Shown here piece by piece: positions 5,096-30,161 of a stretch of 64,000 nucleotides of DNA (position 1 is its first letter; every line of letters starts with the position of its first letter). A model generated the notes under the pieces. The model worked only from the letters and a program-made list of their open reading frames with translations, ran no database searches and was not told the DNA's origin. Location: NCBI GenBank assembly GCA_003220685.1, contig QHTE01000056.1:1231-65230 (forward strand), read 5' to 3'. The stretch is from Candidatus Rokuibacteriota bacterium. GTDB taxonomy: Bacteria > Methylomirabilota > Methylomirabilia > Rokubacteriales > CSP1-6. Both the position numbers and the translations under genes were made by a program.

Positions 5096-5120
5096 CTTTC
5101 CGTAACTACTCAATTAGGTT

Positions 5121-5207: not shown

Positions 5208-5239
5208 CCGAAACGCGTGAGTCATAATACCGTTCGGAC

Positions 5240-7207: not shown

Positions 7208-7321
7208 ATACCCCCTGCGTCGCGGCCTCGCTGGTCGGCTGCGCCAGCACCGGCCCCCTGTGGGCGAAGCTCTCGCCCGCTCGCTAGCGCACCGGGCGGC
7301 TCACGCCGTGTAGCCCTCGAC

Positions 7322-7415
7322 AGTCGGTCACGATCCCGTGAGACTCACGGTCGCAGAGCTCGTGTTCCTCGCGCGCCAGCTCGTTGATCCGATCGAGGAC
7401 CTCCTGATCATCCAC
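7322..7415 (-). pseudogene. 5' remnant of a small DUF2630-like protein
   Basis: RBS (agagggg) plus GTG, then DDQEVLDRINELAREEHEL; resemblance is lost after about 30 codons. Confidence 0.45.
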
Positions 7416-7576
7416 GTCGCCCCTCTCTGATGTTCGCGAAGAGCCGCCTCCGTACAGGTCTTTGGATGCAGGAATGACGGCCGCGGTGACGGCCGAGTGG
7501 AACATTTTTCCCGCGGTCCTGCCCCGAGGCGATGCAATTTGTCAGTTTTCTCAGCGATTTGCAGATAGAGAAATGA

Positions 7577-7616
7577 TGGTACAGTGTGGATGAGACTCAC
7601 ATATAACTCACATATA
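7577..7616 (+). promoter_or_regulatory. Putative extended -10 (TGgTACAGT) followed by a perfect 11-bp direct repeat (ACTCACATATA x2)
   Basis: AT-rich intergenic DNA upstream of the 7687-16029 operon; repeat copies at 7595-7605 and 7606-7616. Confidence 0.55.
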
Positions 7617-7686
7617 AAGGAAGCTGGGCGACGGCTCCAATTGGTTACGCCCGCCTCCGCCAACTCACGACGACACTGATTCTTTT

Positions 7687-9071: not shown

Positions 9072-9092
9072 ATCGAATCGAGGAGGCCCCGA

Positions 9093-11254: not shown

Positions 11255-11255
11255 G

Positions 11256-12287
11256 ATGCAGCGCGGCGCGATCATCGGCCTGGGCAACGTCGCCCTTCAC
11301 GGCCACCTGCCCGGCTGGCGCCGCCGGCGCGACGTCGAGATCGTCGCGGTCACCGATGCGCGGCCCGAGCAGCAGGCCCTCGTCTCGGCCCATGCGCCCA
11401 CAGCCCGCTGGTACCCGACCCCGGCCGAGCTCCTGGCCGAGGCCGCCGTGGACTTCGTCGACATCTGCACCCCGCCGAGCAGTCACGCGCCGCTGATCCG
11501 CCTGGCGCTCGAGCGCGGCCGGCACGTGCTCTGCGAGAAGCCGCTCGTCAGCGCCCCCGACGATCTGGCGCCGCTGGCGCGTCTGGCCGAGAAGACCGGA
11601 CGTGTGCTCCACACCGTCCACAACTGGCACCACGCTCCGATCGTGCGCCGTACGGCGGAGCTGATCCGGGACGGCCGGATCGGCCGGGTCGAGCACGTGA
11701 TCTGGCACACTCTGCGTACCCGGCCGGCCGCGGCCGGCGACGAGCGCACCGGGAACTGGCGCGTCGATCCGGCCATCGCGGGCGGCGGCGTCCTCTCCGA
11801 TCACGGCTGGCACGTGTTCTATGTCGTTCAACGCTGGGTCGGCCAGCCGCCGCTGTCGGTGAGCGCCCGGCTCGAGCGGCGGCGGTACGCCGCGTGGGAC
11901 GTCGAGGACACCGCGACGGTTCGCGTGACGTACGCCGGGGCGACCGCCGAGATCCTGTTGACGTGGGCGTCCGAGGTCCGCCGGAACTGGGCCGAGGTCG
12001 GCGGGAGCGCGGGCATGCTCGAATTGCACGACGACACGCTCGTGCTGAAGAGCGGCGGGCCCGCCGCGGATGCCTCCTGGCCGTGTCCGCCGCCGATGTC
12101 GGACGGCTCGCATCACCCGGACTGGTTCGCCGCGGTCGCGAGCCAGTTCCTCGCCGAGACGACCGGCGCAGCGCCGCGCGGGGTGAACCTCGCCGAGGCG
12201 CGGCTCTGCGTGGCGCTCGAGCACGCGGCGCGCGAGTCGAGTCGACAGAAAGGCCGCGAGATCTCCGTCGCGGGAGCCCGGATCTGA
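11256..12287 (+). CDS. Gfo/Idh/MocA-family NAD(P) oxidoreductase (family of inositol dehydrogenases)
   Basis: IIGLGNVA, HVLCEKP, GGGVLSDHGWH, VEDTA. Confidence 0.92.
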   Translation: MQRGAIIGLGNVALHGHLPGWRRRRDVEIVAVTDARPEQQALVSAHAPTARWYPTPAELLAEAAVDFVDICTPPSSHAPLIRLALERGRHVLCEKPLVSAPDDLAPLARLAEKTGRVLHTVHNWHHAPIVRRTAELIRDGRIGRVEHVIWHTLRTRPAAAGDERTGNWRVDPAIAGGGVLSDHGWHVFYVVQRWVGQPPLSVSARLERRRYAAWDVEDTATVRVTYAGATAEILLTWASEVRRNWAEVGGSAGMLELHDDTLVLKSGGPAADASWPCPPPMSDGSHHPDWFAAVASQFLAETTGAAPRGVNLAEARLCVALEHAARESSRQKGREISVAGARI

Positions 12288-13468
12288 CGACCGCGGTCGC
12301 CGTGTCCGTCCGGTCGGCGGAAAGCCTGCTGCTGGTCGTGCCGCCCGAGCCCGGAACGGCCACCAGCGTGTCGCCGGGCATCGTGGTGGCCGGGCTTCCG
12401 CTGCTGCGCCGGATCGTGCTTGCCGGCTCGCGCGCCGGGTTCTCGCGCGTCCTGGTCCAGATTAGCCATGGCGACGCCGAGCGCCTGCTCGGCGGAACGG
12501 CGGCCGGCGCCCTGAGCGGCGCGCGCCTGCCTGACTCGCGGCGGCGGATCGTGATCCTGCCGGCGAACGTGGTGCCCCAGCCGCGATGGCTTCGCGCCCT
12601 TCGCGAGGCCGAGATCGAGCCCGAGCGCCTCTACGCCGACGGACAGCTGGCCGCGGTCGTCGATACCGACGATCCCGCGGGCGTGCTCGAAGCCGCGGTG
12701 CGGTGCCGGGACGTCGGCGAGCTTCTGGCGACCTTGCGCGGCCGGTTCGACGAGGCCAAGCTCGACGTCGACGAGACCGGGCGGTTTCCGATGACGGAGA
12801 CGGCCGACGCCAAGAGGGCGGAAGCGTGGCTCCTGCGCAGCCTGATCAAGCAGCGCGAGGGTTTCATGTCGCGCCACTTCGAGCGGAAGATCTCGCTGGC
12901 GATCACGCGCCGGCTGGCGGTCACGCGCGTCACGCCCGACGTCATGACACTCGTGAGCGTAGCGATCGGGCTGGTCGGCGCCTCATTCTTCCTGTCGTCG
13001 TCGCCCGTGTACCAGCTCGCCGGGGCGCTCCTGTTCCTGGCCCATTCGATCCTCGACGGCTGCGACGGCGAGCTCGCGCGGCTCAAGTTCATGGAGTCGT
13101 CCCGCGGCGCCGTCCTCGACTTCTGGGGCGACAACGTCGTCCACGTCGGCGTGTTCGCGTGCATGGCGCTCGGCCTGAGCCTTGCCCAGGAAGCGACGTG
13201 GCCGCTCGCGCTCGGCGCGGTCACGGTCGTCGCCACGCTCGGCGCCGCGGCGTGCCAGTCGCGCGCCATCATGCTGGACACGGCCGTCGGTGCCGACGCC
13301 AGTTGGATCGCGCGCTTCGCCGAGGCGTTCTCCCACCGCGACTTCATCTATCTGGTGATCGCCCTGTCGGCCTTTGGGAAGGCCCACGTGTTCCTGATCC
13401 TGGCGTCCATCGGAACGCCAATCTTCTTCGGTCTCCTTCTCTGGGTCGGGGCGCGGCGGCGCGCCTGA
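12284..13468 (+). CDS. CDP-alcohol phosphotransferase with degenerate N-terminal nucleotidyltransferase-like domain (IPCT/DIPPS-like architecture)
   Basis: LDGCDGELAR...GAVLDFWGD signature; EGFMSRHFERKIS..VTP; N-terminal VAGLPLLRRIVLAG. Start uncertain (CTG 12284 overlapping the upstream TGA, or GTG 12302). Confidence 0.85.
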   Translation: MTTAVAVSVRSAESLLLVVPPEPGTATSVSPGIVVAGLPLLRRIVLAGSRAGFSRVLVQISHGDAERLLGGTAAGALSGARLPDSRRRIVILPANVVPQPRWLRALREAEIEPERLYADGQLAAVVDTDDPAGVLEAAVRCRDVGELLATLRGRFDEAKLDVDETGRFPMTETADAKRAEAWLLRSLIKQREGFMSRHFERKISLAITRRLAVTRVTPDVMTLVSVAIGLVGASFFLSSSPVYQLAGALLFLAHSILDGCDGELARLKFMESSRGAVLDFWGDNVVHVGVFACMALGLSLAQEATWPLALGAVTVVATLGAAACQSRAIMLDTAVGADASWIARFAEAFSHRDFIYLVIALSAFGKAHVFLILASIGTPIFFGLLLWVGARRRA

Positions 13469-13475
13469 GCTCGCG

Positions 13476-15047
13476 GTGGCGGGGTTCGTCGAGGTCCTTC
13501 TCCGAGGGCTAGCCCTGTGCGGGCAGGCGGTCGCCATCGGCGGCGTGCTCTTCGCGCTGATGCAGCTGCGTCCAACGCTCCCGGAAGGCGCGCCCGCTCG
13601 CTCGCGCCTGGCGAGAAGTCTCGCGCTGACGGCCATCGGGGTGGCGGTCGTCGCCGCCGCGCAACTGCTCTCCCTGGGGGTCCAGCTCTCGGTCCTCGCC
13701 GAGGCGGGCTCCGGCTGGCCCATCGCCGAGGTCGCGCGCACGAGCTTCTTCCGCGCCGGCGCCGTGCGGATCCTGGCCTGCGCGGGGCTCGTGGTCGGGT
13801 GCCTGGTCCTGGCGAGGCACCCGGATCGGCGGCGCTGGTGGATCGCGCTCGCCGCGCTCACGGTGCTCCTGGGCGTCGGCAGCGCGTGGACGAGTCACGC
13901 CGCCGGCCGCCTCGGGCCGCGAGCCGGGCTCCTGATCCTCGATGCGCTGCACCAGCTCGCCGCCGGCGTGTGGATCGGCGGCCTTCTTCATCTGACTCTC
14001 GTCGCGTCCACACGCGCCGAGGCCGGGTGGTCGGCGGCGTTGCTCAAGCGGTTCTCGGCGACGGCGTTCGCGTCCGTGGCGCTTCTGATCGTCGCCGGGG
14101 TGGGGCTGAGCCTGTCCTACGTCGACGGCGCGAGCGCGCTCCTGGGCACCTCGTACGGCAGCATGATTCTCACGAAGAGCGCGGTGCTCGCCGGGCTCGT
14201 CGTCCTGGGCGCGGCGAACTTCGTCGCGGTGCGACGCCTGCCGGAAGGCTCGAGCGTCTCGATCCCGCGGCTTCGGCGCTTCGTCGAGGTCGAATTCGGC
14301 CTGGGGGCGACGGTCCTGTTCATCGCCGCCTCGCTGACGTCGCTGCCCCCCGCGAGTGACGTCGTGGCCGACCGCGCCTCGTTCGCCGAGGTCAGCATCC
14401 GATTCACGCCGCGCTGGCCTGTCTTCACCTCGCCGAGGATCGCGGACATGCCGGTGGACGACCGCAACGCGCCGCGCACGGACGCTGACCGCGCGTGGTC
14501 GGAGTTCAATCATCACTGGGCCGGTATCTTCGTGCTCGTCATGGGGTTGCTGGCCCTCGTGCACGCCACCGGTCGAGTCCGCTGGACGCGCCACTGGCCG
14601 CTGGTGTTCCTCGGCCTCGCGGGCTTCTTGCTCGTCCGCAACGACCCCGGCGCCTGGCCGCTCGGGCCGCTCGGCTTCTTGGAGAGCATGCGGTATCCCG
14701 AGGTGCTCCAGCATCGGATCTTCGTGCTGCTGGTCGTCGCCTTCGGCGTCTTCGAGTGGCTCGTCCGGACGGATCGCGTGCGCGTGCACGGTGCGGCGCT
14801 CGTCTTTCCGCTCCTCTGCGCCGTCGGCGGCGGGCTCCTCCTCACGCACTCGCACGCGGGGCTGAACCTGAAGGAGGAGTACCTCATCGAGATCACGCAC
14901 GTGCCACTGGGGCTCCTGGCCATGATCACGGGCTGGGCGCGCTGGCTCGAGCTGCGCCTGCCGTCGGCCGGGCGGCTGCCGGGTCGGATCTGGCCGCTCG
15001 CATTCACCCTGATCGGTATGTCGCTCATCCTCTACCGGGAAAGCTGA
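13476..15047 (+). CDS. CopD-family copper-uptake/resistance membrane protein with His-rich C-terminal membrane domain
   Basis: WTSHAAG, LHQLAAGVWIGGL, KRFS, TSYG..ILTK, LGAAN; C-terminal WSEFNHH, QHR, THSH. Confidence 0.8.
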   Translation: MAGFVEVLLRGLALCGQAVAIGGVLFALMQLRPTLPEGAPARSRLARSLALTAIGVAVVAAAQLLSLGVQLSVLAEAGSGWPIAEVARTSFFRAGAVRILACAGLVVGCLVLARHPDRRRWWIALAALTVLLGVGSAWTSHAAGRLGPRAGLLILDALHQLAAGVWIGGLLHLTLVASTRAEAGWSAALLKRFSATAFASVALLIVAGVGLSLSYVDGASALLGTSYGSMILTKSAVLAGLVVLGAANFVAVRRLPEGSSVSIPRLRRFVEVEFGLGATVLFIAASLTSLPPASDVVADRASFAEVSIRFTPRWPVFTSPRIADMPVDDRNAPRTDADRAWSEFNHHWAGIFVLVMGLLALVHATGRVRWTRHWPLVFLGLAGFLLVRNDPGAWPLGPLGFLESMRYPEVLQHRIFVLLVVAFGVFEWLVRTDRVRVHGAALVFPLLCAVGGGLLLTHSHAGLNLKEEYLIEITHVPLGLLAMITGWARWLELRLPSAGRLPGRIWPLAFTLIGMSLILYRES

Positions 15048-15048
15048 G

Positions 15049-16029
15049 CTGCGCTACTTCCGCGTCTCGCTCCTCGTGCTCGGTGTGGCGCTGCTCGCGG
15101 CGCTGGTCGCCCAGAACGACCCGGCGGTGGTGCTCGCGTCGATTGCCGATCTCCACTGGCGGCTCGGCGTCGTTCTCTTCTTCCCGGCCGTGCTCGTCGC
15201 GCTCTTCGACACGCTCGGCTGGCGTTACGCCTTCCTGCGCGAGGCCGTCCCGTTCCGCGCGCTGGCGTGGGCCCGGCTCGCCGGCGAGGCCTTCAACATG
15301 ACGACGCCGACCGCCGCCGTGGGCGGCGAGGCCGTCAAGGCCTGGCTGCTCCGCGGGTACGCGCCGCTCGACGCGACCCTCGCGTCGGTGATCGTCGCGA
15401 AGACCACGATCACCCTGGGTCAGGGGCTGTTCTTCCTGGTGGGGGTGGTCGTGGCGTGGGAGACGGGACTGACCGGGACGGCGCTCCTCTACGCCATGCT
15501 CTGGTTCCTGGTGATCGAAGCGATCGCCCTCGGCCTGTTCGTGCTGGTCCAGACGCGCGGCATGCTCGGCTGGACGGGGCGGCTGCTCGAGCGGGTCGGA
15601 ATTCGCCCGGCGAGGGTGCAGGAGATGCTCGGGCGCGTGGACGAATCGCTCGGCCGGTTCTACCGGACCGCCCCGGGGCGGCTCGGCCTCTCAATCTGGT
15701 TCCACTTCGTCGCCTGGTTCCTGGGCTCCGTCGAGACGTGGCTCATCCTGAAATTTCTCGGGAGAGAGGTGTCGCTGGCGACCGCGACCGTGATCGAGGC
15801 GTTCGCCACGGGGATCAAGGTCGCCACTTTCCTGGTTCCGGCCAGCCTCGGCGTGCTCGAGGGCGGCTTCGTGGCCACGGCCGCCACCTTCGGGCTCTCG
15901 GCCACCACGGCGATCTCCTTCAGCCTCGTGCGGCGCCTGCGGGAGGCCGCCTGGGTCGCGATCGGGCTGGTGGCCTTCGCCGCAATGCGGCCGCGCCAGT
16001 CCAGGGCCCCTGATCCCCCCCGATCATAA
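15049..16029 (+). CDS. Lysylphosphatidylglycerol-synthase TM / flippase-like membrane protein (UPF0104/HpnL type)
   Basis: GEAFNMTTPTAAVGGEAVK, VPASLGVLEGG, RRLRE; multiple TM helices. Start CTG 15049 or GTG 15076. Confidence 0.85.
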   Translation: MRYFRVSLLVLGVALLAALVAQNDPAVVLASIADLHWRLGVVLFFPAVLVALFDTLGWRYAFLREAVPFRALAWARLAGEAFNMTTPTAAVGGEAVKAWLLRGYAPLDATLASVIVAKTTITLGQGLFFLVGVVVAWETGLTGTALLYAMLWFLVIEAIALGLFVLVQTRGMLGWTGRLLERVGIRPARVQEMLGRVDESLGRFYRTAPGRLGLSIWFHFVAWFLGSVETWLILKFLGREVSLATATVIEAFATGIKVATFLVPASLGVLEGGFVATAATFGLSATTAISFSLVRRLREAAWVAIGLVAFAAMRPRQSRAPDPPRS

Positions 16030-22236: not shown

Positions 22237-22275
22237 TATGGCCGCAACGGCGCCAAGGCGCCGGGAGGGAGGCGA

Positions 22276-23067
22276 ATGCTCCACTTCACGATCGACGGGT
22301 TTCGGGGGTTCCGCTCTCGCTTCGACGACGCGCACCTGATCCAGGAAGTCCTCGAGGACGCGCCGGCGCAGCTCGGACTCAAGCGGGCGATGCCGGCCTT
22401 CGTGCTTCCGTACTACAACGGGGTCGTGCCCGAAGATTGCGGGATCAGCGCGTTCGTGTTCCTGGCGGGCGGCCACTTCACGCTCCACACCTTCTCGTTC
22501 CGCGAGACGTACTTCGCCGACCTGGTGGCGCCGGACGAGTTCGACCCGGCCAAGCTCCGGGCGCTGCTCGAGGCGGTCTTCCCGTGCGCGCTCACCAGCG
22601 TCCGGACCGTAGAGCGGCAGGACCTGAAGGACTCCGAACCCGACGTCGAGAACGACTTCGGGCCGCATCTGTTCCTGAATATCGATGCCTACCAGGGCCC
22701 ACGGGACCTCGATTCACTGTTCCAGCTGTTCGACCGGCTCCCGGCCGAGATCGGGATGACGCCGATCATGCGGCCCTACGTCATCCGCGATACCACCACC
22801 GACGGCCAGCCCGTGCTGAGCGCCCTGACGATGATCGCGGAGAGTCACGTGAGCCTGCACGTGTTCCCCCGCGAGGAGCGTGCGTACTTCGACATCTTCT
22901 CGTGCCGATTCTTCGACCGGTCGTTCGTCGTGCCCCGACTCCTCGCCCAGTTCCCGGGCGGGAGCGTCCAGGAGGCGCTGGTCGCCCGGGGTAGCCGCTA
23001 TCGCTACCTCCGGACCGAGCGGGCCGACGAGCACGCCAAGTCGCGCACCTGGCTTCCTCAGCGATAG
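22276..23067 (+). CDS. Tandem two-domain pyruvoyl-dependent decarboxylase (SpeD/AdoMetDC class 1B-like)
   Basis: Domain 1 PEDCGISAFVFLAGGHFTLHTF lacks the E-S cleavage site; domain 2 FGPHL...GMTPI..PYV...MIAESHVSLHVFP...FDIFSC is intact. Confidence 0.85.
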   Translation: MLHFTIDGFRGFRSRFDDAHLIQEVLEDAPAQLGLKRAMPAFVLPYYNGVVPEDCGISAFVFLAGGHFTLHTFSFRETYFADLVAPDEFDPAKLRALLEAVFPCALTSVRTVERQDLKDSEPDVENDFGPHLFLNIDAYQGPRDLDSLFQLFDRLPAEIGMTPIMRPYVIRDTTTDGQPVLSALTMIAESHVSLHVFPREERAYFDIFSCRFFDRSFVVPRLLAQFPGGSVQEALVARGSRYRYLRTERADEHAKSRTWLPQR

Positions 23068-23075
23068 GAGCGAAC

Positions 23076-24152
23076 ATGACTCGTGAGCCGCGATTCGACG
23101 ACCCGAACCTCGTCCGCGAACCGATGACCGTCGCCGAAGACGTCGGACGGGGCAGCGTGCTGTCCCTGCTCGGCCGGATGAGCAAGTCCGCCTTCCAGGG
23201 CCGCAAGCTCGGCGAGGCCTTCGAAGCCTGGAAGGGCATGATCGAGGGCGAGAGCCTCATCTGCCTGGGCTACGCCGCCTCGATGTCCAGCGCCGGGATG
23301 TGGCCGCTGATCACCTGGCTGGTCGAGCGCGGCTACATCGACGTCCTCGCGTCGACCTCGGCCAACATCACGGAGGACCTGCTCGACATGATGGACGGGA
23401 CGCGGGTCTACCGGGTCGACCCCGAGCACGTGGACGACGTGGCCCTCGCCGAGAAGGGTTACTACCGGTTCTACGACCACATCGTCTCCTCCAAGAAGTA
23501 CGACCAGATGGAGACGGTCGTCACCGGCCGATTCTTCGACGAGCTCGCCGACACCTGGCGGAAGCCCACGATCCCCACCGTCCGGCTGCTATTCGAGCTC
23601 GGGAGCTGGCTCAACGCCAAGGGCTTCGAGAAGTCGATCCTGGCGACGGCGGCGCGTAACCAGGTGCCCGTCTTCTGCTGCGGGCTGCCCGACGGCCCGA
23701 TCGGCGAGGGGTACAGCACCTCGCCCAAGGCCGAGCAGGCGCCCGTCGTCGATTTCTTCAAGGACTACCGGATCGCGACCGACATCATGGACAACGCGAT
23801 GATGTCGCCCCGAGGTACCTCGGTCGTCTTCCTGGGCGGCGGCGTGCCCAAAGATTTCCTGCAGATCACCGCGACCAGCGTGCGGACGCGCCACGGCAAC
23901 GTGGACCCGACGCCGCACAAGGCCTCGATCCAGATCACGACCGACAACACGGTCTACGGCGGCCTCGGCGGTGCCACGCTCGCCACCGAATGCATCTCGT
24001 GGGGAAAAGAGGCGCACGGGAGCGCCAACGTCATGTGCTTCGCCGACGTCACGATCGCGCTGCCGATCATATGTCAGGGGCTCGCCGAGCACTTTGGGCG
24101 CGGCCACCGGCGCGAGCGGGCCAAGCCGTTGAAGTTGTCCGAAGTTTTCTAG
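23076..24152 (+). CDS. Deoxyhypusine-synthase-like protein (bacterial DHS/SpeY-type)
   Basis: AFQGRKLGEA, MSSAG, STSANITED, LGGGVPKDF, GGLGGAT..ECISWGK (catalytic Lys position kept), DVTIALP. Confidence 0.9.
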   Translation: MTREPRFDDPNLVREPMTVAEDVGRGSVLSLLGRMSKSAFQGRKLGEAFEAWKGMIEGESLICLGYAASMSSAGMWPLITWLVERGYIDVLASTSANITEDLLDMMDGTRVYRVDPEHVDDVALAEKGYYRFYDHIVSSKKYDQMETVVTGRFFDELADTWRKPTIPTVRLLFELGSWLNAKGFEKSILATAARNQVPVFCCGLPDGPIGEGYSTSPKAEQAPVVDFFKDYRIATDIMDNAMMSPRGTSVVFLGGGVPKDFLQITATSVRTRHGNVDPTPHKASIQITTDNTVYGGLGGATLATECISWGKEAHGSANVMCFADVTIALPIICQGLAEHFGRGHRRERAKPLKLSEVF

Positions 24153-24555: not shown

Positions 24556-24936
24556 CTATCGAGGCCGGAACCGCACGACGGTGTAGCCGAGCGAGGAGGC
24601 CTGGCCGAGCCGGAGCCGCCGCCGGAGCCGTCGTCGGTCGGGCGCCCGCTGCCGCAGGTCGTGACGCCGGTCGCCCTTCCGGCGCTCGAGAATAACCTTC
24701 ACCCCGCGCACTCCCTCCAGCCGGCGCTGGAGATATTCGAACAGCGCGACGTCGTGACGGCGGACCACGATCAAGAGCTCGATGTCGGGGAACGACAGGG
24801 ACGGAAGCGACGCGAGCAGCAGCGCCGCGTGCCGCGGACAGTACCCGTGCGTTTCGGTGGGATTGTCGAACGGCGCTTTCTCACCGAGATCACCGGGACG
24901 GCCCTCGGCACGGCACGACGCGCAGATGACTTTCAT
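24556..24936 (-). CDS. Hypothetical protein: CxxC...HGYCxxH metal-binding-like N-domain plus RxxxR-rich C-domain
   Basis: MKVICASC, ETHGYCPRH, VILERRKGDRR...DRRR; RBS ggagg upstream. Confidence 0.7.
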   Translation of the reverse strand: MKVICASCRAEGRPGDLGEKAPFDNPTETHGYCPRHAALLLASLPSLSFPDIELLIVVRRHDVALFEYLQRRLEGVRGVKVILERRKGDRRHDLRQRAPDRRRLRRRLRLGQASSLGYTVVRFRPR

Positions 24937-25134
24937 GCGGCCCGAGAACCTTTGCCTCCTCCCGCGCTCGCCTTGGCCGTCTATAATTCAGGAAAGAATC
25001 GCCGCGGCCACACGTGAGCACGACACTCTAGCACCTTCTCCCCGCGCGTTCGAGCGCGGCCAGCGTAAACGCGCGAACCCGCCCGTTCGTCTGGCGAGGT
25101 GTACCATGACTGGAAGAAGAATCCGGAGGCCAGC

Positions 25135-25578
25135 GTGATCAAAGCCGGACGGATCTCCAGTACCGCGTTGCTGCTGGCTCTCGCGTGCGTCTCTCGCGCC
25201 GGGGCCGAGGATCTCGAGCACTTCGCCATGAGTCACGTTCGACTGTCCACCGACTCCGCGATCGCCTCGGGATGCGCGCGCGTGTCCAGAGTCAGCGACG
25301 ATTCGCTCCGAGATCTGCGGCGGAAGGTCGTGCGATCCGGTGGCAACACCGCGGTCCTCTCGTTCTCGACCGACGACCTGGGGATGATCCTCGCGGACGT
25401 CTACCGCTGTACGCCGCCGGCGGCACGCCGCCCGCCGAACGTTCCGCCGCCCCCGGCGGGGCCGCCGCCGCCACCACCGCCGTCGTCGAGCCCGCCCCCG
25501 CCGCCGCCGTCCGGGACTCCGCCGCCGCCTCCGGCGGGTGGTCCGCCCCCGCCACCTCCGCCGCCGCCCTCGCGGTAG
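25135..25578 (+). CDS. Hypothetical exported protein with poly-proline tail
   Basis: Signal-like LLLALACVSRAGA; small domain with two Cys; about 45-residue Pro-rich tail (CCG repeats ~25430-25570). Confidence 0.6.
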   Translation: MIKAGRISSTALLLALACVSRAGAEDLEHFAMSHVRLSTDSAIASGCARVSRVSDDSLRDLRRKVVRSGGNTAVLSFSTDDLGMILADVYRCTPPAARRPPNVPPPPAGPPPPPPPSSSPPPPPPSGTPPPPPAGGPPPPPPPPPSR

Positions 25579-25629
25579 GCGCGGGCCGCTTCGGGCGGAG
25601 CGCGGCCTGCGACTGGTCGGTGGTCTGGC

Positions 25630-26295
25630 TCAGCGTCCGGCGCCGACCAGAGCCGCCAATGCCCAGTCGACGGATGGAGCCAGCACGTCGGCAACGCTGA
25701 CGGCCCAGAGCGCCGTCACGATCGCCGCGAAGACGTCCATCGTGTAGTGCGCGCGGAGCACCAGCACCGCTGCCGCTTCGACGCCGGCGATCACGACACC
25801 CAGGACCGGCAGGATCGGCCCGCCCATTCGCGCCAGCTCGACGCTTCCGAAGACCGCTATCGCGGTGTGGCCCGAGAAGAACAGATCCGTCGCGGTGTCA
25901 TAGGTAACGAGCAGCGAGGGAATGCCGGGCCGGCGCCAGATCATCCCCTCGGGGGGCGGCAGCGCGCACAGGCCCTGGCAGAGCTGTCGCAGCGCGTAGA
26001 GGATCAGCAGCCCCAGGAACGGGCGAATGCTCGGTCCGAAGATCGATCGCGCGAGGATGAAAAGCCCGAGCATATCGATGATCGCCGACGTCGTGACCAG
26101 GAGCGCGTCGGCGGCGCGCGGGTGCTCCCGGAGATATCGGTTTAGCGGCGCGGTCAGCTGATGGACGCCGTCGCCGATGTTTCCAGCGGGCCACGCTCGT
26201 TGACCGATCAGCCGCTGCGTCCAGAACCAGCCGGCCAGGCCGGCGATGACCAGACCGAGGCGCACCGCCCACAGCTCCGCAGTCGCTCCGCTCAT
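25630..26295 (-). CDS. Sphingomyelin-synthase/IPC-synthase-like PAP2 membrane enzyme (PAP2_C)
   Basis: LPPPEG, TDLFFSGHT (D3-like), AHYTMDV (D4-like); ATG at 26295 overlaps the MFS stop (ATGA). Confidence 0.82.
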   Translation of the reverse strand: MSGATAELWAVRLGLVIAGLAGWFWTQRLIGQRAWPAGNIGDGVHQLTAPLNRYLREHPRAADALLVTTSAIIDMLGLFILARSIFGPSIRPFLGLLILYALRQLCQGLCALPPPEGMIWRRPGIPSLLVTYDTATDLFFSGHTAIAVFGSVELARMGGPILPVLGVVIAGVEAAAVLVLRAHYTMDVFAAIVTALWAVSVADVLAPSVDWALAALVGAGR

Positions 26296-27572
26296 CGCGC
26301 GCTCCGCGTCGGCGTCGCTACGGTCGTGCGCGCGGCCTCGAGATCGGTTTCCAGGGTCGCCCGGCCCGCCAGGAGCACCGCGCCGGCCGCCGCCAGCAAG
26401 CATCCGGCGACGAGGATGGGCACGCGGAGCCCGATCTGGTCCGAGGCGACGCCGATGAGCCAGGGCGATGCGGCGTCGCCGAGCAGGTGCATCAGTAGCG
26501 TCGTCACCGCGAATCCCCGCGCGCGCAGCTCGGCCGGCAGCACGTTCGCCATCGCCGCGTTCGTCGGCCCGATGTTCACGAAGAGCAGCAGCAACGTGAC
26601 GAATATGGCCGGCCAGAACACGGCCGGCTGCGGCGCCAGCACCGCGAAGAGCGTGAAGACGATGGACATCGCGAGCGACCAACCCGATACGATGAAATCG
26701 GCGCTGGGGTGCCGCCGCGCCACCGCCGAGGAAAGGCGCCCGCCGAGCAAGGTGCCGGCGAAGCCGGCGACGACGAGGAGCAGGCCGAAGGTCGCCGCGG
26801 CGCTCGTCAGCGGGATGCCGCGCTCGCGCACGAAGTAGGTCGGCATCCACGTCGCCAGCCCGCCCATGCTGAAGGTGTAGATGATCTGCGCCGCGGTGTT
26901 GACGGCGTAGCTCCGGCGGCTCATGAGCGCGCGCAGCGAGGGGGCTAGACCGAGCGGCGTGGCCGCGCCGTGCACGCTGTCCTGGGAGCCGCGCGCGGGC
27001 TCGGTCAGCAGCAGCAGGAGGAAGGCGAGAACGGCGCCCGGCGCGCCGGCCACGAAGAAAGCGGCGCGCCAGCCGTGCGCCTCGCCGATCACGCCGCCCA
27101 CGATGTAGCCGAGGGCCGAGCCGATCGGGATCGCCGCGTAGAAGATGCCGAGCATACGCGCCCGCCGTTCGGCCGGGTAACAGTCGGAGAGAAGCGATGG
27201 GGTGACGACCGCGTAGCTCGCCTCGCCGATACCGATCACGGCGCGGGCGAGGAGGAGCCAGCCGTAGGTGGGCGCCAGGCCCGACGCCACGGTGGCGATG
27301 CTCCACACGAACACGCCGCTCGCGACCAGGCGCAGGCGCTTGCCGGCGTCGCCGAGCCAGCCGGCCGGCCCGCACGCCAGGGAATAGGCGACGATGAAGA
27401 GGGACTGGAGCAGACCGCCCTGAGCATCCGAGATCGCCAGGTCGGCCAGGATGAGGGGCAGGGTGGCCGCGGAGACGTAGCGGTCCAGATAGTTCAGGGC
27501 GTTGAGCGTCGTGAGGGAGCCGAGGATGAGCCGCGGCGACTGCGACCAGCGGCTAGCGGACATCACTCGCAC
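26292..27572 (-). CDS. Spinster (SPNS)-like MFS transporter
   Basis: LNYLDRY, GWLGD, RAVIGIGEASY, SDCYP...RMLGIFYAAIPIGSALGY, HLLGDAASP. Confidence 0.88.
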   Translation of the reverse strand: MRVMSASRWSQSPRLILGSLTTLNALNYLDRYVSAATLPLILADLAISDAQGGLLQSLFIVAYSLACGPAGWLGDAGKRLRLVASGVFVWSIATVASGLAPTYGWLLLARAVIGIGEASYAVVTPSLLSDCYPAERRARMLGIFYAAIPIGSALGYIVGGVIGEAHGWRAAFFVAGAPGAVLAFLLLLLTEPARGSQDSVHGAATPLGLAPSLRALMSRRSYAVNTAAQIIYTFSMGGLATWMPTYFVRERGIPLTSAAATFGLLLVVAGFAGTLLGGRLSSAVARRHPSADFIVSGWSLAMSIVFTLFAVLAPQPAVFWPAIFVTLLLLFVNIGPTNAAMANVLPAELRARGFAVTTLLMHLLGDAASPWLIGVASDQIGLRVPILVAGCLLAAAGAVLLAGRATLETDLEAARTTVATPTRSAR

Positions 27573-28950
27573 GATCTGATCCGAGCACCTCGGGCGGCAC
27601 GCGGTCCGCGAGATCGCGAACCTCTCCCACGAGCGCTCGCCGCTCGTCGAGGAGCCGCCGGTGCAGCCCGCGATCGGTGAGGAACCAGAAGAAGGCTCGC
27701 GCCTGACGGATGAATCGGCCGAGCCGCTCGCGCCAGACCAGCGCCAGCAAGCCCGACGGCACGATCAGAACGATGAACAGTAGCAGCGCGCCGCGGCCGG
27801 CGAGCCGCCAGACGAGCCAGCCCTCGATCGCCCAGAGGACCGGATAGAACACGAGACCGACCGCCATCTTGTCGGTCGCCTCCTCCTCGGAGGTTCGCCC
27901 GAGTCGCTTCACGATCTGACCGGTCAGCCAGTAGGGCGCCGCGTGACTCACGATCCCCCAGCATGCCAGAGGCAGGCCGAGCGCCAGCCACAGCATATTG
28001 GTCGCGACGTAGGAGAGGACGAGGCCGGGCTTGTATGGCAGGCCGAGCTGGTCGCTCGCGATCCCGACCTCGTCGAGATGGCCGCGGTAGACTTCGATCT
28101 TGCGCCGGAGCGCGGCCACGCGGTGCGGCTCGCGCGCGGCGAGGTAGCGCCCCGCCCGCATCACCCGTTGCTTCCAGGCAAGCGCGTACTCGGCGGCCTC
28201 GCCCGGCCGCGGCTCGGGCTCGCCGCGGGGGGCCGCCTCTTGCCACCACGCGCGCTCGAGCACAGCGAGGAGCTCGAGCGAGTACTGGTCCTGGGCTTCG
28301 ACGATCTGGGCGCCGATGGATTCCGTGAGCCGAGCGGTGATCGCCCGCACGGCGTCTTCCGGACGATCACGATGGGCCGCCGTGAGATCGGCGGTCTCGA
28401 TGGGGCCGCCGATCGTGATCTGGACCGACGCGGACCGAAACGTGCCCGGGTCGTGGAAGACCATTCCGACGGGCAGGAGCGTCACGCGGCCGGCGCCGCC
28501 CATGGCGCGCTCGGCCCCGAGGGCCAGGCGCGCGGCGCCCGTGCGCAGCGGCAACAAGATCGGCTGGGGCTGCGTCCGTCCTTCGGGAAAGATCAGGATG
28601 ACGCCGCCCGCGCGCAGAGCTTCGATCGCCGCGGCGAACATCTCCTCGTTCTTCCGCGGGTCGTCGCCGGCCTCCGCGCGCCGGCGGACCGGCACGGCGC
28701 CCAGCAGGTGCAGCGGCGGGCCGACGAGCGGGTGGCGAAAGAGCGGCGCGTTGGCGAGCACCGTGACGGCGCGGGGGACGGTCACGATGATCAGCATCGC
28801 GTCGACGACGGAGTTGTGGTGGTTGGCGGCGATGATCACCCCGCCGCTCGCGGGAATGCGCTCGCGCCCGACCACGTCGATCCGCCGGTAAAAGAGCCAC
28901 AGGAGGAGGCGGACCAGGACCCGGACGACCCGATAGGCCACGGCATCCAA
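27553..28950 (-). CDS. Glycerophospholipid/lysophospholipid acyltransferase (PlsC superfamily) with C-terminal TM region
   Basis: ANHHNSVVD (HxxxxD), GAVPVRR, IFPEG, LRTGAAR; overlaps the MFS start. Confidence 0.88.
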   Translation of the reverse strand: MDAVAYRVVRVLVRLLLWLFYRRIDVVGRERIPASGGVIIAANHHNSVVDAMLIIVTVPRAVTVLANAPLFRHPLVGPPLHLLGAVPVRRRAEAGDDPRKNEEMFAAAIEALRAGGVILIFPEGRTQPQPILLPLRTGAARLALGAERAMGGAGRVTLLPVGMVFHDPGTFRSASVQITIGGPIETADLTAAHRDRPEDAVRAITARLTESIGAQIVEAQDQYSLELLAVLERAWWQEAAPRGEPEPRPGEAAEYALAWKQRVMRAGRYLAAREPHRVAALRRKIEVYRGHLDEVGIASDQLGLPYKPGLVLSYVATNMLWLALGLPLACWGIVSHAAPYWLTGQIVKRLGRTSEEEATDKMAVGLVFYPVLWAIEGWLVWRLAGRGALLLFIVLIVPSGLLALVWRERLGRFIRQARAFFWFLTDRGLHRRLLDERRALVGEVRDLADRVPPEVLGSDRASDVR

Positions 28951-29033
28951 CCTATCCGAAACCTCGCGTTCGTTGGACAGACATTCGGCGCCCGTCTTGA
29001 CCCCCGGCGATCGGTGGAGCTACCCTCCCGGCC

Positions 29034-30161
29034 ATGAGCTACCGCATCATTTCAGCCGACTGCCATATCGATATGACCTGGATGCCCGGCGACCTATGGG
29101 TCAAGAACGGACCCGCGAAGTTCCGCGATCGGGTGCCGCAGGTGCGGCAAACCGACGACGGGCCCCGCTGGTTCGCCGAGGAAAAGGAGCTCGGGGTCTA
29201 CGGCGGGCTGGGCTTCGGCTTCGACCGCGTCCAGCGCGGATTCTCCAAGCACGTCGAGAGGATGTTCGAGGTCGGCTTCTACGAGGGCGGCCCGCACCCC
29301 ACCACGCCCGCGCTGCGGCTGAAGGATCAAGACCTCGACGGCATCGACGCCGAGGTCATGTACGGGATCCTCGGAATCGGCCTGCGCATGCAGGATCGCG
29401 AGCTCATCCAGGCGGTCTACGAGGTCTACAACAGCTGGGCCGCCGACTTCTGCAAGACCAATCCGCGGCGCTTCGTCGGGCTCGCGTGCATTCCGAGCCA
29501 CGATCCCGAGGCTGCCGCGAAGGAGCTCCGGCGCGCGGCGGCGCTCGGTCTCAAGGGCGCCGACTTCGCGGTGTCCACCGCGGCGTTTCCGATCTGGCAC
29601 GGCGCCTGGGATCCGTTGTGGGAGGCCGCCCAGGAGTGCCGCATGGCGATCTCGTTCCACACCACGGGATATCCGGTGCGCGAGCCGGCCGACGACGTGA
29701 TGAAGCAGGAGTACGACCTGCGCTATCGCGCCACGCGCACCACGATGTTCCAGATTTGCGCCGCCGAGTTTCTCGCGAGCATCGTGTTCTCAGGCGCGCT
29801 CGATCGGTTCCCGGGCTTCAAGTTCGTGCTCGGCGAGGCCGGCGTGAGCTGGCGGCCGTACATCCTCGACCGGATGGACGAGGAGTACGAGGACCGCTAT
29901 CACCAGCTCGCGCTGTCGATGAAGCCGAGCGAGCTGTGGCGCCGCCAGGGCTACTCGACATATCAGCACGAGCCGTTCGTGGCGGTCATGATCCCGCTCA
30001 TCGGCGAGGACAACATCATGTGGGGCTCGGATTATCCGCACCCCGACGGCATCTGGCCCGACTCGCAGAAGTGGATCGCCGAGGACCTCCGTTCGGTCAG
30101 CCCGGCGGTGCAGCGCAAGATCCTCTGCGAGAACGCCGGCAAGCTGTACGGACTCCTGTAG
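29034..30161 (+). CDS. Amidohydrolase family 2 protein
   Basis: ISADCH, DGIDAEVMY, WDPLWEA..SFH, MWGSDYPHPD, ENAGKLY. Confidence 0.9.
   Translation: MSYRIISADCHIDMTWMPGDLWVKNGPAKFRDRVPQVRQTDDGPRWFAEEKELGVYGGLGFGFDRVQRGFSKHVERMFEVGFYEGGPHPTTPALRLKDQDLDGIDAEVMYGILGIGLRMQDRELIQAVYEVYNSWAADFCKTNPRRFVGLACIPSHDPEAAAKELRRAAALGLKGADFAVSTAAFPIWHGAWDPLWEAAQECRMAISFHTTGYPVREPADDVMKQEYDLRYRATRTTMFQICAAEFLASIVFSGALDRFPGFKFVLGEAGVSWRPYILDRMDEEYEDRYHQLALSMKPSELWRRQGYSTYQHEPFVAVMIPLIGEDNIMWGSDYPHPDGIWPDSQKWIAEDLRSVSPAVQRKILCENAGKLYGLL

What the first reader, a model, noticed from the sequence alone, without database searches (positions are those of the whole stretch)
25630..28950. Eukaryote-like lipid module: acyltransferase + Spinster transporter + sphingomyelin/IPC-synthase-like enzyme
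Seen: three overlapping minus-strand genes. The MFS matches SPNS motifs closely (NYLDR, GIGEASY, MLGIFYAAIPIGSALGY). The last gene has DLFFSGHT and HYTMDV, matching the D3/D4 His-His-Asp motifs of sphingomyelin synthases and plant/kinetoplastid IPC synthases. The first is an HxxxxD/FPEG acyltransferase. Known: SPNS1/2 move lysophospholipids or sphingosine-1-P; SMS-family enzymes transfer phospho-headgroups between lipids. Inference: a bacterial lysolipid or sphingoid salvage, reacylation and headgroup-exchange system, analogous to but not homologous with LplT-Aas. It might use the product of the 7.7-16 kb operon as headgroup donor.
Basis: partly seen in the sequence, partly recalled or inferred. 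Interest (0 to 1): 0.75.

Follow-up and report, generated by a model that had tools for sequence, protein, structure and literature searches.

The report
Bacterial Spinster lysolipid-repair operon with PAP2_C enzyme
Three overlapping genes encode an acyltransferase, a Spinster-type lipid transporter and a sphingomyelin-synthase-like enzyme that most likely recycle damaged membrane phospholipids, which gives a testable clue to what bacterial Spinster transporters naturally carry.

Summary
Three co-oriented, overlapping minus-strand genes encode a PlsC-type acyltransferase (AT) with a transmembrane tail, a true Spinster-family MFS and an SMS/PDCT-like PAP2_C enzyme.

The AT is the hub of a modular system.
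- Of 80 PAP2_C loci from many phyla, 65 have a PF01553 AT just upstream and 36 also carry an MFS.
- That MFS is Spinster-type in 12 loci, in three gene orders, and LplT-type in 24, mostly as LplT-AT-acyl-ACP-synthetase fusions.
- Single polypeptides also exist for Spinster-AT-AMP-ligase, Spinster-AT and AT-PAP2_C.
- PAP2_C is optional: close congeners keep AT-Spinster with this gene cleanly absent.

Best reading: a Spinster-based analogue of the LplT/Aas lysophospholipid flip-and-reacylate repair system. It carries an accessory periplasm-facing phospho-headgroup transferase or PLC-like enzyme acting on glycerolipids.

The sphingolipid idea is not supported. No serine palmitoyltransferase was found in this 87.6%-complete genome, and sphingolipid-like clusters elsewhere in the phylum carry a different PAP2_3 enzyme.

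The proposed link to the 7.7-16 kb operon has no support.

No paper in my searches describes the module. It is a new variant of a known kind, and PAP2_C chemistry is unresolved.

The parts
27553..28950 (-). Acyltransferase, 465 aa. It has an N-terminal PlsC/GPAT-fold domain carrying the HxxxxD and FPEG motifs, then a helical linker and a conserved C-terminal transmembrane region.
   Evidence: PF01553 at residues 23-163, 1e-21. The best NCBIfam match is the AT domain of NF006386. H44, D50 and F121-P122-E123-G124 are invariant in 24 orthologues. The AF2 model has pLDDT 82.5 with long helices at 308-425. Foldseek gives GPAT and PlsC at about 2e-5. Hydrophobic segments lie at 310-408.
26292..27572 (-). 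Spinster-family MFS transporter, 426 aa (the start may be ATG 27563 instead). It is the proposed lysolipid flippase.
   Evidence: SPNS1 7e-52, SPNS2 4e-50 and HnSpns 2e-33. PF07690 at 3e-44 plus an OATP-type match. N27, Y28, D30 and R31 are nearly invariant, and G116-E117-A118 are invariant, in 24 orthologues. It is single-copy in the genome.
25630..26295 (-). PAP2_C (SMS/PDCT-like) six-helix membrane enzyme, 221 aa. Catalytic candidates are H143, H183 and D187.
   Evidence: PF24788 and PF14360 both score above their gathering cut-offs. H143, H183 and D187 are invariant or nearly so in two alignments. The AF2 model has pLDDT 95.3. The best structural match is human SMSr 8ijq (Foldseek E 4e-3, TMq 0.60; VIA Z 13.9, rmsd 3.5, 198 residues aligned). 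It is single-copy in the genome.

Best explanation
The three genes form one operon for remodelling or repair of envelope glycerophospholipids. The operon is built around the acyltransferase.

Proposed mechanism:
- The Spinster-type MFS does what LplT does in proteobacteria. It takes a lysophospholipid (or similar single-chain lysolipid) from the periplasmic leaflet of the inner membrane and flips it to the cytoplasmic leaflet, driven by protons.
- The membrane-anchored PlsC-type AT re-acylates the lysolipid there.
- The PAP2_C enzyme is an optional third part. It is a six-helix SMS/PDCT-type enzyme whose His-His-Asp site faces the periplasmic leaflet. It most likely moves a phospho-headgroup between a phospholipid and diacylglycerol or monoacylglycerol, or cleaves it off PLC-fashion. 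It would thereby make or consume neutral or lyso lipids that the AT then handles.

What is shown: the family assignments, conservation of catalytic residues, gene order, synteny, the fusion proteins and the optional nature of PAP2_C.

What is inferred: the substrate, the direction of transport, the topology and the chemistry of PAP2_C.
For: 1. Family assignments.

2. The 80 PAP2_C loci, as classified:
- 65 of 80 have a PF01553 AT (stand-alone or inside a fusion) directly upstream on the same strand.
- 12 of 80 also have a Spinster-type MFS, in three different gene orders: AT-Spns-PAP in L023, L029 and L043, as in the window; Spns-AT-PAP in 8 loci; AT-PAP-Spns in L048. The L021 MFS matches SPNS1 at 5.7e-47.
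- 17 of 80 have an LplT-AT-AMP-ligase fusion 65-127 nt upstream of PAP2_C. The L074 protein scores 1396 bits against NF006386, cut-off 1221.
- 5 more have that fusion plus a second AT plus PAP2_C.
- 2 have an LplT-like MFS directly upstream (L026, and L049).

3. Fusion proteins:
- P0124 is AT plus PAP2_C in one chain.
- P0271, P0272 and P0273 are Spinster-type MFS plus AT plus AMP-binding. P0275 and P0276 are Spinster-type MFS plus AT.
- The MFS part of P0271 matches SPNS1 at 3.5e-48.

4. Seen from the Spinster side, in 29 loci of the phylum the AT lies directly upstream in 16.

5. All 9 strong PAP2_C orthologues in the 151-genome sample lie beside an AT of some type.

6. The genome has Lnt, a source of lyso-PE. 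No single ORF covers the whole LplT-Aas model.

7. The soluble AT fused N-terminally to PAP2_C (P0124) puts the PAP2_C N-terminus in the cytoplasm. With the helix map, H143, H183 and D187 then fall on the opposite, periplasmic side.

8. From papers:
- LplT and Aas are co-operonic, form a complex and flip and re-acylate lyso-PE; fused forms exist but are uncharacterised (PMC11416262, passages).
- Human SPNS1 is described as a lysosomal lysophospholipid salvage transporter (PMC9546575, title and abstract start only).
- SMS and SMSr are reported to have PLC activity on PC and PE (PMC8648842 and PMC7988496, titles and abstract starts only).
Against: No biochemical data exist for any of the three proteins or their close relatives.

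- PAP2_C is dispensable. Congeners L108 and L109 are colinear with the window but lack the gene exactly. None of 5 genomes that have AT-Spns without a neighbouring PAP2_C carries a PAP2_C anywhere; the positive control gave 5 of 5.
- 13 of 80 PAP2_C loci have no AT domain at all. At least 4 of these have short upstream flanks.
- 13 of 29 Spinster loci in the phylum have no AT within 1.5 kb.
- Bacterial Spinster homologues have so far been linked experimentally to drug resistance, and their native substrates are stated to be unknown (PMC9440201, passages; bioRxiv 10.64898/2026.05.09.724020, passages).
- Structural Z-scores do not separate the phosphotransferases (SMSr 13.9, IPCS 13.5, Aur1 13.4) from the phosphatases LpxE (13.4) and PgpB (12.5).
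- No acyl-ACP synthetase gene lies in the window operon.
- 4 of the 9 strong PAP2_C orthologues in the phylum sample lie in genomes that also have an SPT-like gene, against 27 of 151 overall. They are on other contigs and the genomes are related to each other.
Confidence: 0.55

Rival explanations
1. Biosynthesis and export. The AT makes a particular acylated lipid on the cytoplasmic face. The Spinster MFS exports or flips it outward, as SPNS2 exports S1P. PAP2_C then adds a phospho-headgroup (for example phosphoethanolamine or phosphoglycerol taken from PE or PG) on the periplasmic face, as SMS and IPC synthases do to ceramide.
For: The closest structural matches over the full length are headgroup transferases acting on an exoplasmic leaflet: SMSr, IPC synthase and Aur1. 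SPNS2, an exporter, matches the MFS almost as well as SPNS1 does. The periplasm-facing site is inferred. FA_hydroxylase-PAP2_C fusions (P0162, P0208) hint at a specialised lipid tail.
Against: In 24 of 80 loci the partner transporter is LplT-type. The MFS-AT-acyl-ACP-synthetase architecture is a salvage design, and it is repeated with a Spinster-type MFS. AT-Spns persists without PAP2_C, so the pair has a function of its own.
Confidence: 0.2
2. The module salvages sphingoid bases or lyso-sphingolipids, N- or O-acylates them, and PAP2_C acts as a ceramide phospho-headgroup transferase (a bacterial SMS, CPE or IPC synthase).
For: - The PAP2_C and PDCT Pfam families and the SMSr, IPCS and Aur1 fold matches.
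- 27 of 151 genomes of the phylum have an SPT-like gene scoring 513-566 bits (one of them, G047, is flagged unpublished).
- 4 of the 9 strong PAP2_C orthologues lie in such genomes.
- The own genome has a homologue (41-43% identity) of the GNAT protein that sits next to the SPT-like genes.
Against: - The only alpha-oxoamine synthase found in the own genome is Kbl: TIGR01822 at 620 bits against a cut-off of 493, while the SPT models score 238-316 bits against cut-offs of 500-670.
- The SPT-like/GNAT/FA-hydroxylase cluster of congener G118 has no DNA or protein counterpart here, although its flank is present inside contig C98. G118 itself lacks PAP2_C.
- The Spinster and SPT-like genes overlap in 4 genomes, where about 8 would be expected by chance.
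- Where an SPT-like/GNAT/epimerase cluster was inspected (G018), the adjacent PAP2 enzyme is of the PAP2_3 (Aur1) type.
- PAP2_C is never on the same contig as the SPT-like gene in the 4 co-occurring genomes.
- The AT belongs to the O-acyltransferase PlsC family.
Confidence: 0.1
3. Unrelated neighbours. The MFS is a multidrug efflux pump like MsSpns, the AT is a housekeeping LPA acyltransferase and PAP2_C is a lipid phosphate phosphatase. The clustering carries no functional meaning.
For: A bacterial Spinster homologue confers drug resistance (PMC9440201, passages). Both partners are lost or absent in many relatives. PAP2 phosphatases score nearly as well in the fold comparison.
Against: The genes overlap translationally. 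The linkage recurs in three gene orders and across phyla. Fusion proteins join each pair. 65 of 80 PAP2_C loci have an AT upstream.
Confidence: 0.08

Closest known systems
LplT/Aas lysophospholipid remodelling system of Gram-negative bacteria, including the single-chain LplT-AT-AAS form (NCBIfam NF006386)
   Same: An MFS lipid transporter is encoded next to, and overlapping, a PF01553 acyltransferase. The AT domain's best NCBIfam match is the Aas AT domain. The same PAP2_C family sits directly downstream of true NF006386 proteins in 17 of 80 loci.
   Different: The MFS here is Spinster-type, not LplT-type: LplT is not among the best 25 of its 61 NCBIfam matches. The window operon has no acyl-ACP synthetase domain. 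The AT carries its own transmembrane tail, whereas Aas is peripheral (PMC11416262, passages). A third enzyme, PAP2_C, is added.
Human SPNS1 (lysosomal LPC/LPE exporter) and SPNS2 (S1P exporter); bacterial HnSpns and MsSpns
   Same: Clear sequence homology: 7e-52 to SPNS1, 4e-50 to SPNS2 and 2e-33 to HnSpns. The TM1 Asp-Arg pair and the TM4 Glu are conserved. The proposed job, moving a lysolipid from the exoplasmic side to the cytoplasmic side for re-acylation, has the same direction as SPNS1 salvage.
   Different: No transport data exist. HnSpns and MsSpns have been studied as drug or lipophile transporters with unknown native substrates. The papers read do not mention an acyltransferase link.
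Sphingomyelin synthase family (SMS1, SMS2, SMSr) and plant PDCT (ROD1): Pfam PF14360 and PF24788
   Same: Both Pfam models score above their cut-offs. The protein has six helices and conserved S-G-H and H-x3-D elements. SMSr is the best structural match. PDCT working together with lyso-PC acyltransferases in plant acyl editing is a functional parallel (recalled, not read here).
   Different: - Only 15% identity to SMSr in the structural alignment, and no sequence match to any solved chain.
- It is a bacterial protein with no SAM domain or other extension.
- No ceramide supply was found in this genome.
- Its activity is unknown, and the donor lipids would be PE or PG rather than PC.
Earlier scan note e1-2828074: an AT, Aur1-like PAP2 and dikinase cassette linked to Aas/LplT in other phyla
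   Same: The same theme: a PF01553 AT, sometimes fused to an MFS, beside a headgroup-transferase-like PAP2 enzyme, with repeated linkage to Aas/LplT.
   Different: That cassette uses a PAP2_3/Aur1-like enzyme and a PEP-utilising kinase. No such kinase appeared in the loci I annotated. Here the PAP2 enzyme is of the PAP2_C/PDCT type and the MFS is Spinster-type.

Membership tests
Spinster (Spns) subfamily of the MFS | MFS fold, with the closest similarity to SPNS1/2/3 rather than to other MFS families | tested here: met
   PF07690 at 3e-44. Among solved structures SPNS1 scores 7e-52 and SPNS2 4e-50, against the next family (NorA) at 9e-11.
Spinster (Spns) subfamily of the MFS | Conserved TM1 Asp-Arg pair and TM4 Glu protonation switch. 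These residues are named in PMC9440201 (passages). | tested here: met
   NYLDR aligns with NYMDR of SPNS1, and GIGEASY aligns with GVGEASY. D30 and R31 are nearly invariant and E117 is invariant in 24 orthologues.
Spinster (Spns) subfamily of the MFS | Proton-coupled transport of a lysolipid or sphingoid lipid | not testable with these tools
   This needs a transport assay.
SMS/PDCT-type PAP2_C enzymes (LPT family) | Match to PF14360 and/or PF24788 above the gathering score | tested here: met
   PF24788 at 43.7 bits and PF14360 at 33.2 bits, both with a cut-off of 27. PF01569 PAP2 scores 21 bits, below its cut-off.
SMS/PDCT-type PAP2_C enzymes (LPT family) | Catalytic His (S-G-H) plus His-x3-Asp (H-Y-T-x-D). 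The motif definitions are recalled from the SMS literature. | tested here: met
   H143, H183 and D187 are nearly invariant in 36 diverse sequences and invariant in 14.
SMS/PDCT-type PAP2_C enzymes (LPT family) | Six-helix fold closer to the phosphotransferases than to the PAP2 phosphatases | tested here: inconclusive
   SMSr is the top hit in Foldseek (E 4e-3, TMq 0.60, against at most 0.52 for phosphatases). In VIA-align it scores Z 13.9 with 198 residues aligned. LpxE at 13.4 and PgpB at 12.5 lie within or near 1 Z unit.
SMS/PDCT-type PAP2_C enzymes (LPT family) | Phospho-headgroup transfer between a phospholipid and DAG or ceramide | not testable with these tools
   This needs an enzyme assay.
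Bacterial sphingolipid pathway (as the context for an SMS-like enzyme) | Serine palmitoyltransferase present in the genome | tested here: not met
   17 PF00155 matches were found. Of the 13 strongest that I read, only one is an alpha-oxoamine synthase. It is Kbl (TIGR01822 at 620 bits against a cut-off of 493), and the SPT models fall below their cut-offs. The genome is 87.6% complete, so this means 'not found', not 'absent'.
LplT/Aas system | MFS of the LplT family (NF008397, or the N-terminal part of NF006386) | tested here: not met
   The window MFS has no LplT model among its best 25 NCBIfam matches. True LplT-type partners (L074, L026) do match these models.
LplT/Aas system | PF01553 acyltransferase encoded next to the transporter | tested here: met
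   The ORFs overlap. The best NCBIfam match of the AT is NF006386 positions 414-539.
LplT/Aas system | Acyl-ACP synthetase (AMP-binding) domain attached to the AT | tested here: not met
   None of the three window proteins has a PF00501 match. The domain is present in the related Spinster-AT-AMP fusions P0271, P0272 and P0273.
PlsC/GPAT-type lysophospholipid acyltransferases (PF01553) | HxxxxD and FPEG(R) motifs and the GPAT/PlsC fold | tested here: met
   PF01553 at 1e-21. H44, D50 and F121-G124 are invariant. Foldseek gives GPAT 1iuq at 2e-5 and PlsC 5kym at 3e-5.

The most novel reading that the evidence does not exclude
Bacterial Spinster transporters are lysophospholipid salvage flippases. 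They hand their cargo to a dedicated acyltransferase, which is the same logic as human SPNS1 in lysosomes and a repeated evolutionary alternative to LplT. The bacterial PAP2_C proteins are a so far unrecognised third arm of envelope lipid repair. They would be a periplasm-facing PDCT/SMS-type headgroup exchanger, giving bacteria a 'Lands cycle plus headgroup exchange' of the kind known from plant acyl editing.
Probability: 0.35. Interest if true: 0.8.

Novelty: new variant of a known kind. Interest (0 to 1): 0.62.

Why it matters
- **Native substrate of bacterial Spinster proteins.** The papers I read call it unknown, although these proteins serve as structural models for SPNS1 and SPNS2, which are of medical interest. 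A conserved operonic link to a lysophospholipid-type acyltransferase, backed by fusion proteins, gives a concrete hypothesis that can be tested with the published LplT/Aas assays.
- **The bacterial PAP2_C/PDCT-like family.** It is large: 1048 clusters at 50% identity with E up to 0.001. The source names and Atlas cluster names I saw are all generic (hypothetical protein, PAP2-related, PAP2 C-terminal, SMS-like domain). Its near-constant pairing with acyltransferases and LplT/Aas points to an unrecognised step in membrane lipid homeostasis of soil and water bacteria (Acidobacteriota, Verrucomicrobiota, Planctomycetota, Rokubacteria and others).
- **Evolution.** It would show that MFS families were swapped within one repair machine.

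Tried and rejected
- **Complex prediction.** Complex prediction on AT (A3) plus Spinster (A4) gave no verdict (score 0.00, mark 0.32). It counts neither for nor against binding.
- **First locus scan.** The search for related loci with the diverse alignment A1 failed because no stretch was conserved enough. I repeated it with the narrower alignment A2.
- **Sequence search of PAP2_C against solved structures.** Nothing meaningful was found; the best hit had E 1.3.
- **Promoter and terminator scan.** It found nothing.
- **The 7.6-16 kb operon as partner.** Only generic aminotransferase and SDR similarities appeared in the related loci, so I rejected it.
- **SDR genes near the module.** They occur in two lineages, but their NCBIfam matches are generic and below every cut-off. 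I did not count them as part of the system.
- **C-terminal domain of the AT.** It has no relative among solved structures beyond the GPAT/PlsC core. It is not homologous to the C-terminal part of the roughly 405-aa 'type 2' ATs.
- **Literature.** Searches for a described bacterial Spinster/AT/PAP2_C module found none. Only 3 papers mention both 'spinster' and 'LplT', and none is about such a link by title or abstract. The lipocone paper PMC12419801 and the LtaA paper PMC8866510 were read in passages and are not relevant to the module.
- **Earlier findings of this scan.** The look-ups by sequence and by genome were empty.

Full report
**What is there**

The window has 62-73% G+C. Between 25630 and 28950 the minus strand carries three ORFs with the high third-position G+C of real genes.
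- AT: 27553-28950, 465 aa.
- MFS: 26292-27572, 426 aa.
- PAP2_C: a 221-aa protein starting at the ATG at 26295 within the long frame 25630-27375.

The MFS stop and the PAP2_C start share ATGA, and the AT and MFS ORFs overlap by up to 20 nt.

Upstream lies a divergent amidohydrolase gene (29001-30161, +). Downstream there is a gap of about 640 nt and then a small conserved ORF (24556-24987, -). The unit therefore looks like a three-gene operon. The promoter and terminator scan found nothing.

The nearest named relatives are 'Candidatus Rokuibacteriota' MAGs, at 60-76% protein identity in L023, L029 and L043. The organism is probably from that phylum, but I did not establish this.

**The three proteins**

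*AT.*
- PF01553 covers residues 23-163 (1e-21).
- The best NCBIfam match is the AT segment (positions 414-539) of the LplT-Aas fusion model NF006386.
- HxxxxD (H44, D50) and FPEG (121-124) are invariant in 24 orthologues.
- The AF2 model (pLDDT 82.5) shows a GPAT/PlsC-fold head (Foldseek 1iuq 2e-5, 5kym 3e-5). A helical linker and long helices at 308-425 follow, and these coincide with hydrophobic segments.
- The tail is conserved, for example the nearly invariant E355-K361 stretch (K361 itself invariant).

*MFS.*
- Among solved structures it matches human SPNS1 (7e-52), SPNS2 (4e-50) and bacterial HnSpns (2e-33). The next family follows at 9e-11.
- The TM1 Asp-Arg pair and the TM4 Glu are conserved. 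PMC9440201 (passages) describes these as the proton switches and the substrate-binding arginine.

*PAP2_C.*
- PF24788 (AtPDCT1_2) and PF14360 (PAP2_C) score above their cut-offs, while the general PAP2 model does not.
- H143, H183 and D187 are conserved in 36 diverse relatives.
- The AF2 model is very confident (pLDDT 95.3, six long helices).
- Human SMSr is the best Foldseek hit (E 4e-3, TMq 0.60) and the best VIA hit (Z 13.9, rmsd 3.5, 198 residues aligned). IPC synthase 9vj4 (13.5) and Aur1 (13.4) follow.
- The phosphatases LpxE (13.4, 156 aligned) and PgpB from Bacillus (12.5) are statistically tied. Fold alone cannot decide between transferase and phosphatase.

**Distribution and synteny from the PAP2_C side**

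The family is large. There are 1048 representatives at 50% identity with E up to 0.001. It is named only 'phosphatase PAP2-related', 'AtPDCT1/2 domain' or 'SMS-like domain' protein.

A scan of one genome per GTDB species returned more than 518 confirmed relatives, and the best 80 loci were kept. They come from Acidobacteriota, Rokubacteria, Verrucomicrobiota, Planctomycetota, Bdellovibrionota, Burkholderiales, Eremiobacterota, Chloroflexota and others.

I classified all 80 using tblastn with twelve queries, Pfam on 48 neighbouring ORFs from 15 of the 80 loci, and an AT-domain HMM on the negatives:

| Arrangement | Loci |
|---|---|
| Spinster-type MFS plus window-type AT plus PAP2_C. Orders: AT-Spns-PAP in L023/L029/L043; Spns-AT-PAP in L019/021/024/028/035/039/050/054; AT-PAP-Spns in L048 | 12 |
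| 1142-aa MFS-AT-AMP-binding protein 65-127 nt upstream of PAP2_C | 17 |
| That fusion plus a second, roughly 405-aa AT, plus PAP2_C (L034/036/038/044/046; L034 has a gap of about 1.8 kb) | 5 |
| L070: AT-AMP-binding without an MFS, plus AT, plus PAP2_C | 1 |
| LplT-like MFS directly upstream (L026, L049) | 2 |
| Window-type AT only (2 of these cut by the contig end) | 12 |
| Soluble 'type 2' AT only | 18 |
| No AT domain anywhere in the locus (at least 4 with short upstream flank) | 13 |

The L074 fusion is a true member of NF006386 (1396 bits, cut-off 1221). The L026 MFS matches the LplT part of that model. The L021 MFS is Spinster-type (SPNS1 5.7e-47).

In total 65 of 80 loci have an AT just upstream, and 36 of 80 have an MFS of one of two different families.

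**From the Spinster side**

- In a sample of 151 genomes of the phylum, 45 have a Spinster orthologue (E up to 1e-40), patchily distributed (5 of 8 in the own genus).
- In the 29 loci returned, the AT is directly upstream in 16 and PAP2_C directly downstream in 5. Two loci have too little downstream sequence to judge.
- Congeners L108 and L109 are colinear with the window at 82-88% DNA identity on both sides. Window positions 25585-26319, which hold the PAP2_C gene, are replaced by about 58 nt.
- A profile search found no PAP2_C anywhere in 5 of 5 AT-Spns genomes lacking it locally (88-100% complete). The same profile found it in 5 of 5 positive controls.
- PAP2_C-like matches occur in 16 of 151 genomes. 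Nine of these are strong orthologues, and all nine lie next to an AT: five AT-Spns-PAP, one AT-PAP, two fusion-PAP and one PAP-fusion.

**Fusion proteins**

- P0124 (632 aa) is a type-2 AT (61% identical to the L038 AT) followed by PAP2_C.
- Among proteins of at least 747 aa related to the window MFS, 8 reached E 1e-30. P0271, P0272 and P0273 are Spinster-type MFS plus AT plus AMP-binding. P0275 and P0276 are Spinster-type MFS plus AT.
- The MFS part of P0271 matches SPNS1 at 3.5e-48.
- The LplT-AT-AAS architecture has therefore been built a second time with a Spinster MFS.
- Other PAP2_C fusions carry an FA_hydroxylase domain (P0162, P0208) or a tandem duplicate (P0121, P0129, P0133).

**Interpretation**

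The AT is the hub. It recruits an MFS of either the Spinster or the LplT family, a PAP2_C enzyme, or both.

LplT/Aas is a proven lysophospholipid flip-and-reacylate system whose genes are co-operonic, whose proteins form a complex, and which exists as uncharacterised fusions (PMC11416262, passages). The parallel architectures make it likely that the Spinster protein here plays the LplT role.

This fits human SPNS1, described as a lysosomal lysophospholipid salvage transporter (PMC9546575, title and abstract start only). Its direction, from the exoplasmic side to the cytosol, is the same.

A source of lyso-PE exists in the genome: Lnt scores 347 bits against a cut-off of 133. No single ORF matches the whole LplT-Aas model.

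For PAP2_C, the N-terminal fusion to a soluble, necessarily cytoplasmic AT (P0124) places its N-terminus inside. With the helix map, H143, H183 and D187 fall on the periplasmic side, as recalled for SMS enzymes. The enzyme and the AT then act on opposite leaflets. That would explain why a flippase is often, but not always, present: neutral products such as DAG or MAG cross unaided (established lipid biophysics, recalled).

Which reaction PAP2_C catalyses is not shown. SMS-family enzymes both transfer headgroups and act as PLCs (PMC8648842 and PMC7988496, titles and abstract starts only). DgkA-type DAG kinase (PF01219) was not found in this incomplete genome. This may or may not be relevant.

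**The sphingolipid question**

- *Own genome.* Of 17 PF00155 matches I read the 13 strongest. Only one is an alpha-oxoamine synthase, and it is Kbl.
- *SPT-like genes in the phylum.* In the sample, 27 of 151 genomes have an SPT-like gene scoring 513-566 bits on NF047600. That is below the cut-off of 640 but far above the Kbl-like scores of at most 389. G047, flagged unpublished, is one of the 27.
- *Their clusters.* These genes sit in clusters with a GNAT-like protein and an epimerase or FA hydroxylase. In G018 a divergently transcribed PAP2_3 (Aur1-type) enzyme is also present.
- *Congener G118.* It has such a cluster but no PAP2_C. The own genome has PAP2_C but no counterpart of the cluster, although the flanking DNA lies inside contig C98.
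- *Overlap with Spinster.* Spinster and SPT-like genes overlap in 4 genomes, where about 8 would be expected.
- *Evidence that leans the other way.* Strong PAP2_C orthologues and SPT-like genes overlap in 4 of 9 genomes, against a background of 27 of 151. They are on different contigs and within related genomes. The own genome also encodes a homologue (41-43% identity) of the GNAT-like protein, in a different cluster without any alpha-oxoamine synthase.

I therefore keep a residual 10% for a ceramide-like acceptor.

**The 7.6-16 kb operon**

It encodes a HAD hydrolase, a class-III aminotransferase, a GFO/IDH/MocA oxidoreductase, a CopD-like membrane protein and an LPG_synthase_TM protein. Housekeeping genes on the other strand separate it from the triad. 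None of its specific proteins recurs near PAP2_C or Spinster genes elsewhere, so there is no evidence for a link.

**Literature and novelty**

Six searches found no description of a bacterial Spinster/AT/PAP2_C module. The two bacterial Spinster papers read in passages state that native substrates are unknown, and neither mentions an acyltransferase.

Here I confirmed AT-PAP2 and LplT/Aas linkage for the PAP2_C family, but I did not see its kinase.

**Verdict**

This is a real, conserved but modular lipid operon. It is a Spinster-based variant of LplT/Aas-type lysolipid repair with an accessory SMS/PDCT-like enzyme of unknown chemistry. The sphingoid and headgroup-donor extensions do not.

Noticed in passing
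window 7618-16029 (+): An operon encoding a HAD hydrolase, an unknown 285-aa protein, a class-III aminotransferase, a GFO/IDH/MocA oxidoreductase, a CopD-like 549-aa membrane protein and an LPG_synthase_TM (MprF flippase-like) protein. It could make an amino-sugar or inosamine-type lipid modification. It shows no linkage to the triad in other genomes.
   Followed up: partly
L139 (G018:C35) 1481-5718; L137 (G118:C166) 719-4805; L138 (G024:C273) 257-3087: Other genomes of the same phylum carry ceramide-pathway-like clusters. In G018 the cluster has an NAD-epimerase, an SPT-like alpha-oxoamine synthase (524-547 bits on NF047600, below the cut-off), a GNAT-like 367-373-aa protein and a divergent PAP2_3 (Aur1-type) enzyme. 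In G118 it includes an FA_hydroxylase protein. 27 of 151 genomes have the SPT-like gene, one of which (G047) is flagged unpublished.
   Followed up: partly
L144 (G000:C23:24000-38000), ORF 6374-7672 (+) and neighbours: The own genome has a 432-aa homologue (41-43% identity) of the GNAT-like protein found beside the SPT-like genes. Here it sits with two GMC oxidoreductases, an aminotransferase-III/dehydrogenase fusion (851 aa), a FemAB-like GNAT and an SDR. No alpha-oxoamine synthase is present. This may be a different N-acyl amino-lipid pathway.
   Followed up: partly
L074 3413-4297 (-) and equivalents in pattern-D loci; L021 4362-5159 (+), L024, L028: A short-chain dehydrogenase gene lies divergently next to the LplT-AT-AAS fusion plus PAP2_C loci, and directly upstream of the Spinster gene in Thermoanaerobaculia loci. 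The NCBIfam matches are generic and below the cut-offs. A hydroxysteroid-dehydrogenase neighbour is also mentioned for MsSpns.
   Followed up: partly
P0162, P0208 (FA_hydroxylase + PAP2_C); P0121, P0129, P0133 (tandem PAP2_C): Further domain architectures of the PAP2_C family: fusion to a fatty-acid hydroxylase/sterol-desaturase-type domain, and internal duplication.
   Followed up: no
window 25099-25578 (+) and 24556-24987 (-): Between PAP2_C and the next gene lies an ORF whose C-terminal third is almost pure proline, with G, S, A and T (possibly not a gene). The 143-aa Cys-containing ORF downstream has no Pfam match but is 87-89% identical in congeners.
   Followed up: no
window 22237-24152 (+): A pair of adjacent genes encoding an AdoMet-decarboxylase-like protein and a deoxyhypusine-synthase-like protein (polyamine or homospermidine type).
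   Followed up: no
G009:C13:33346-33980: The PAP2_C match in this genome is split in two pieces, one of which has an in-frame TGA. It may be a decaying copy.
   Followed up: no
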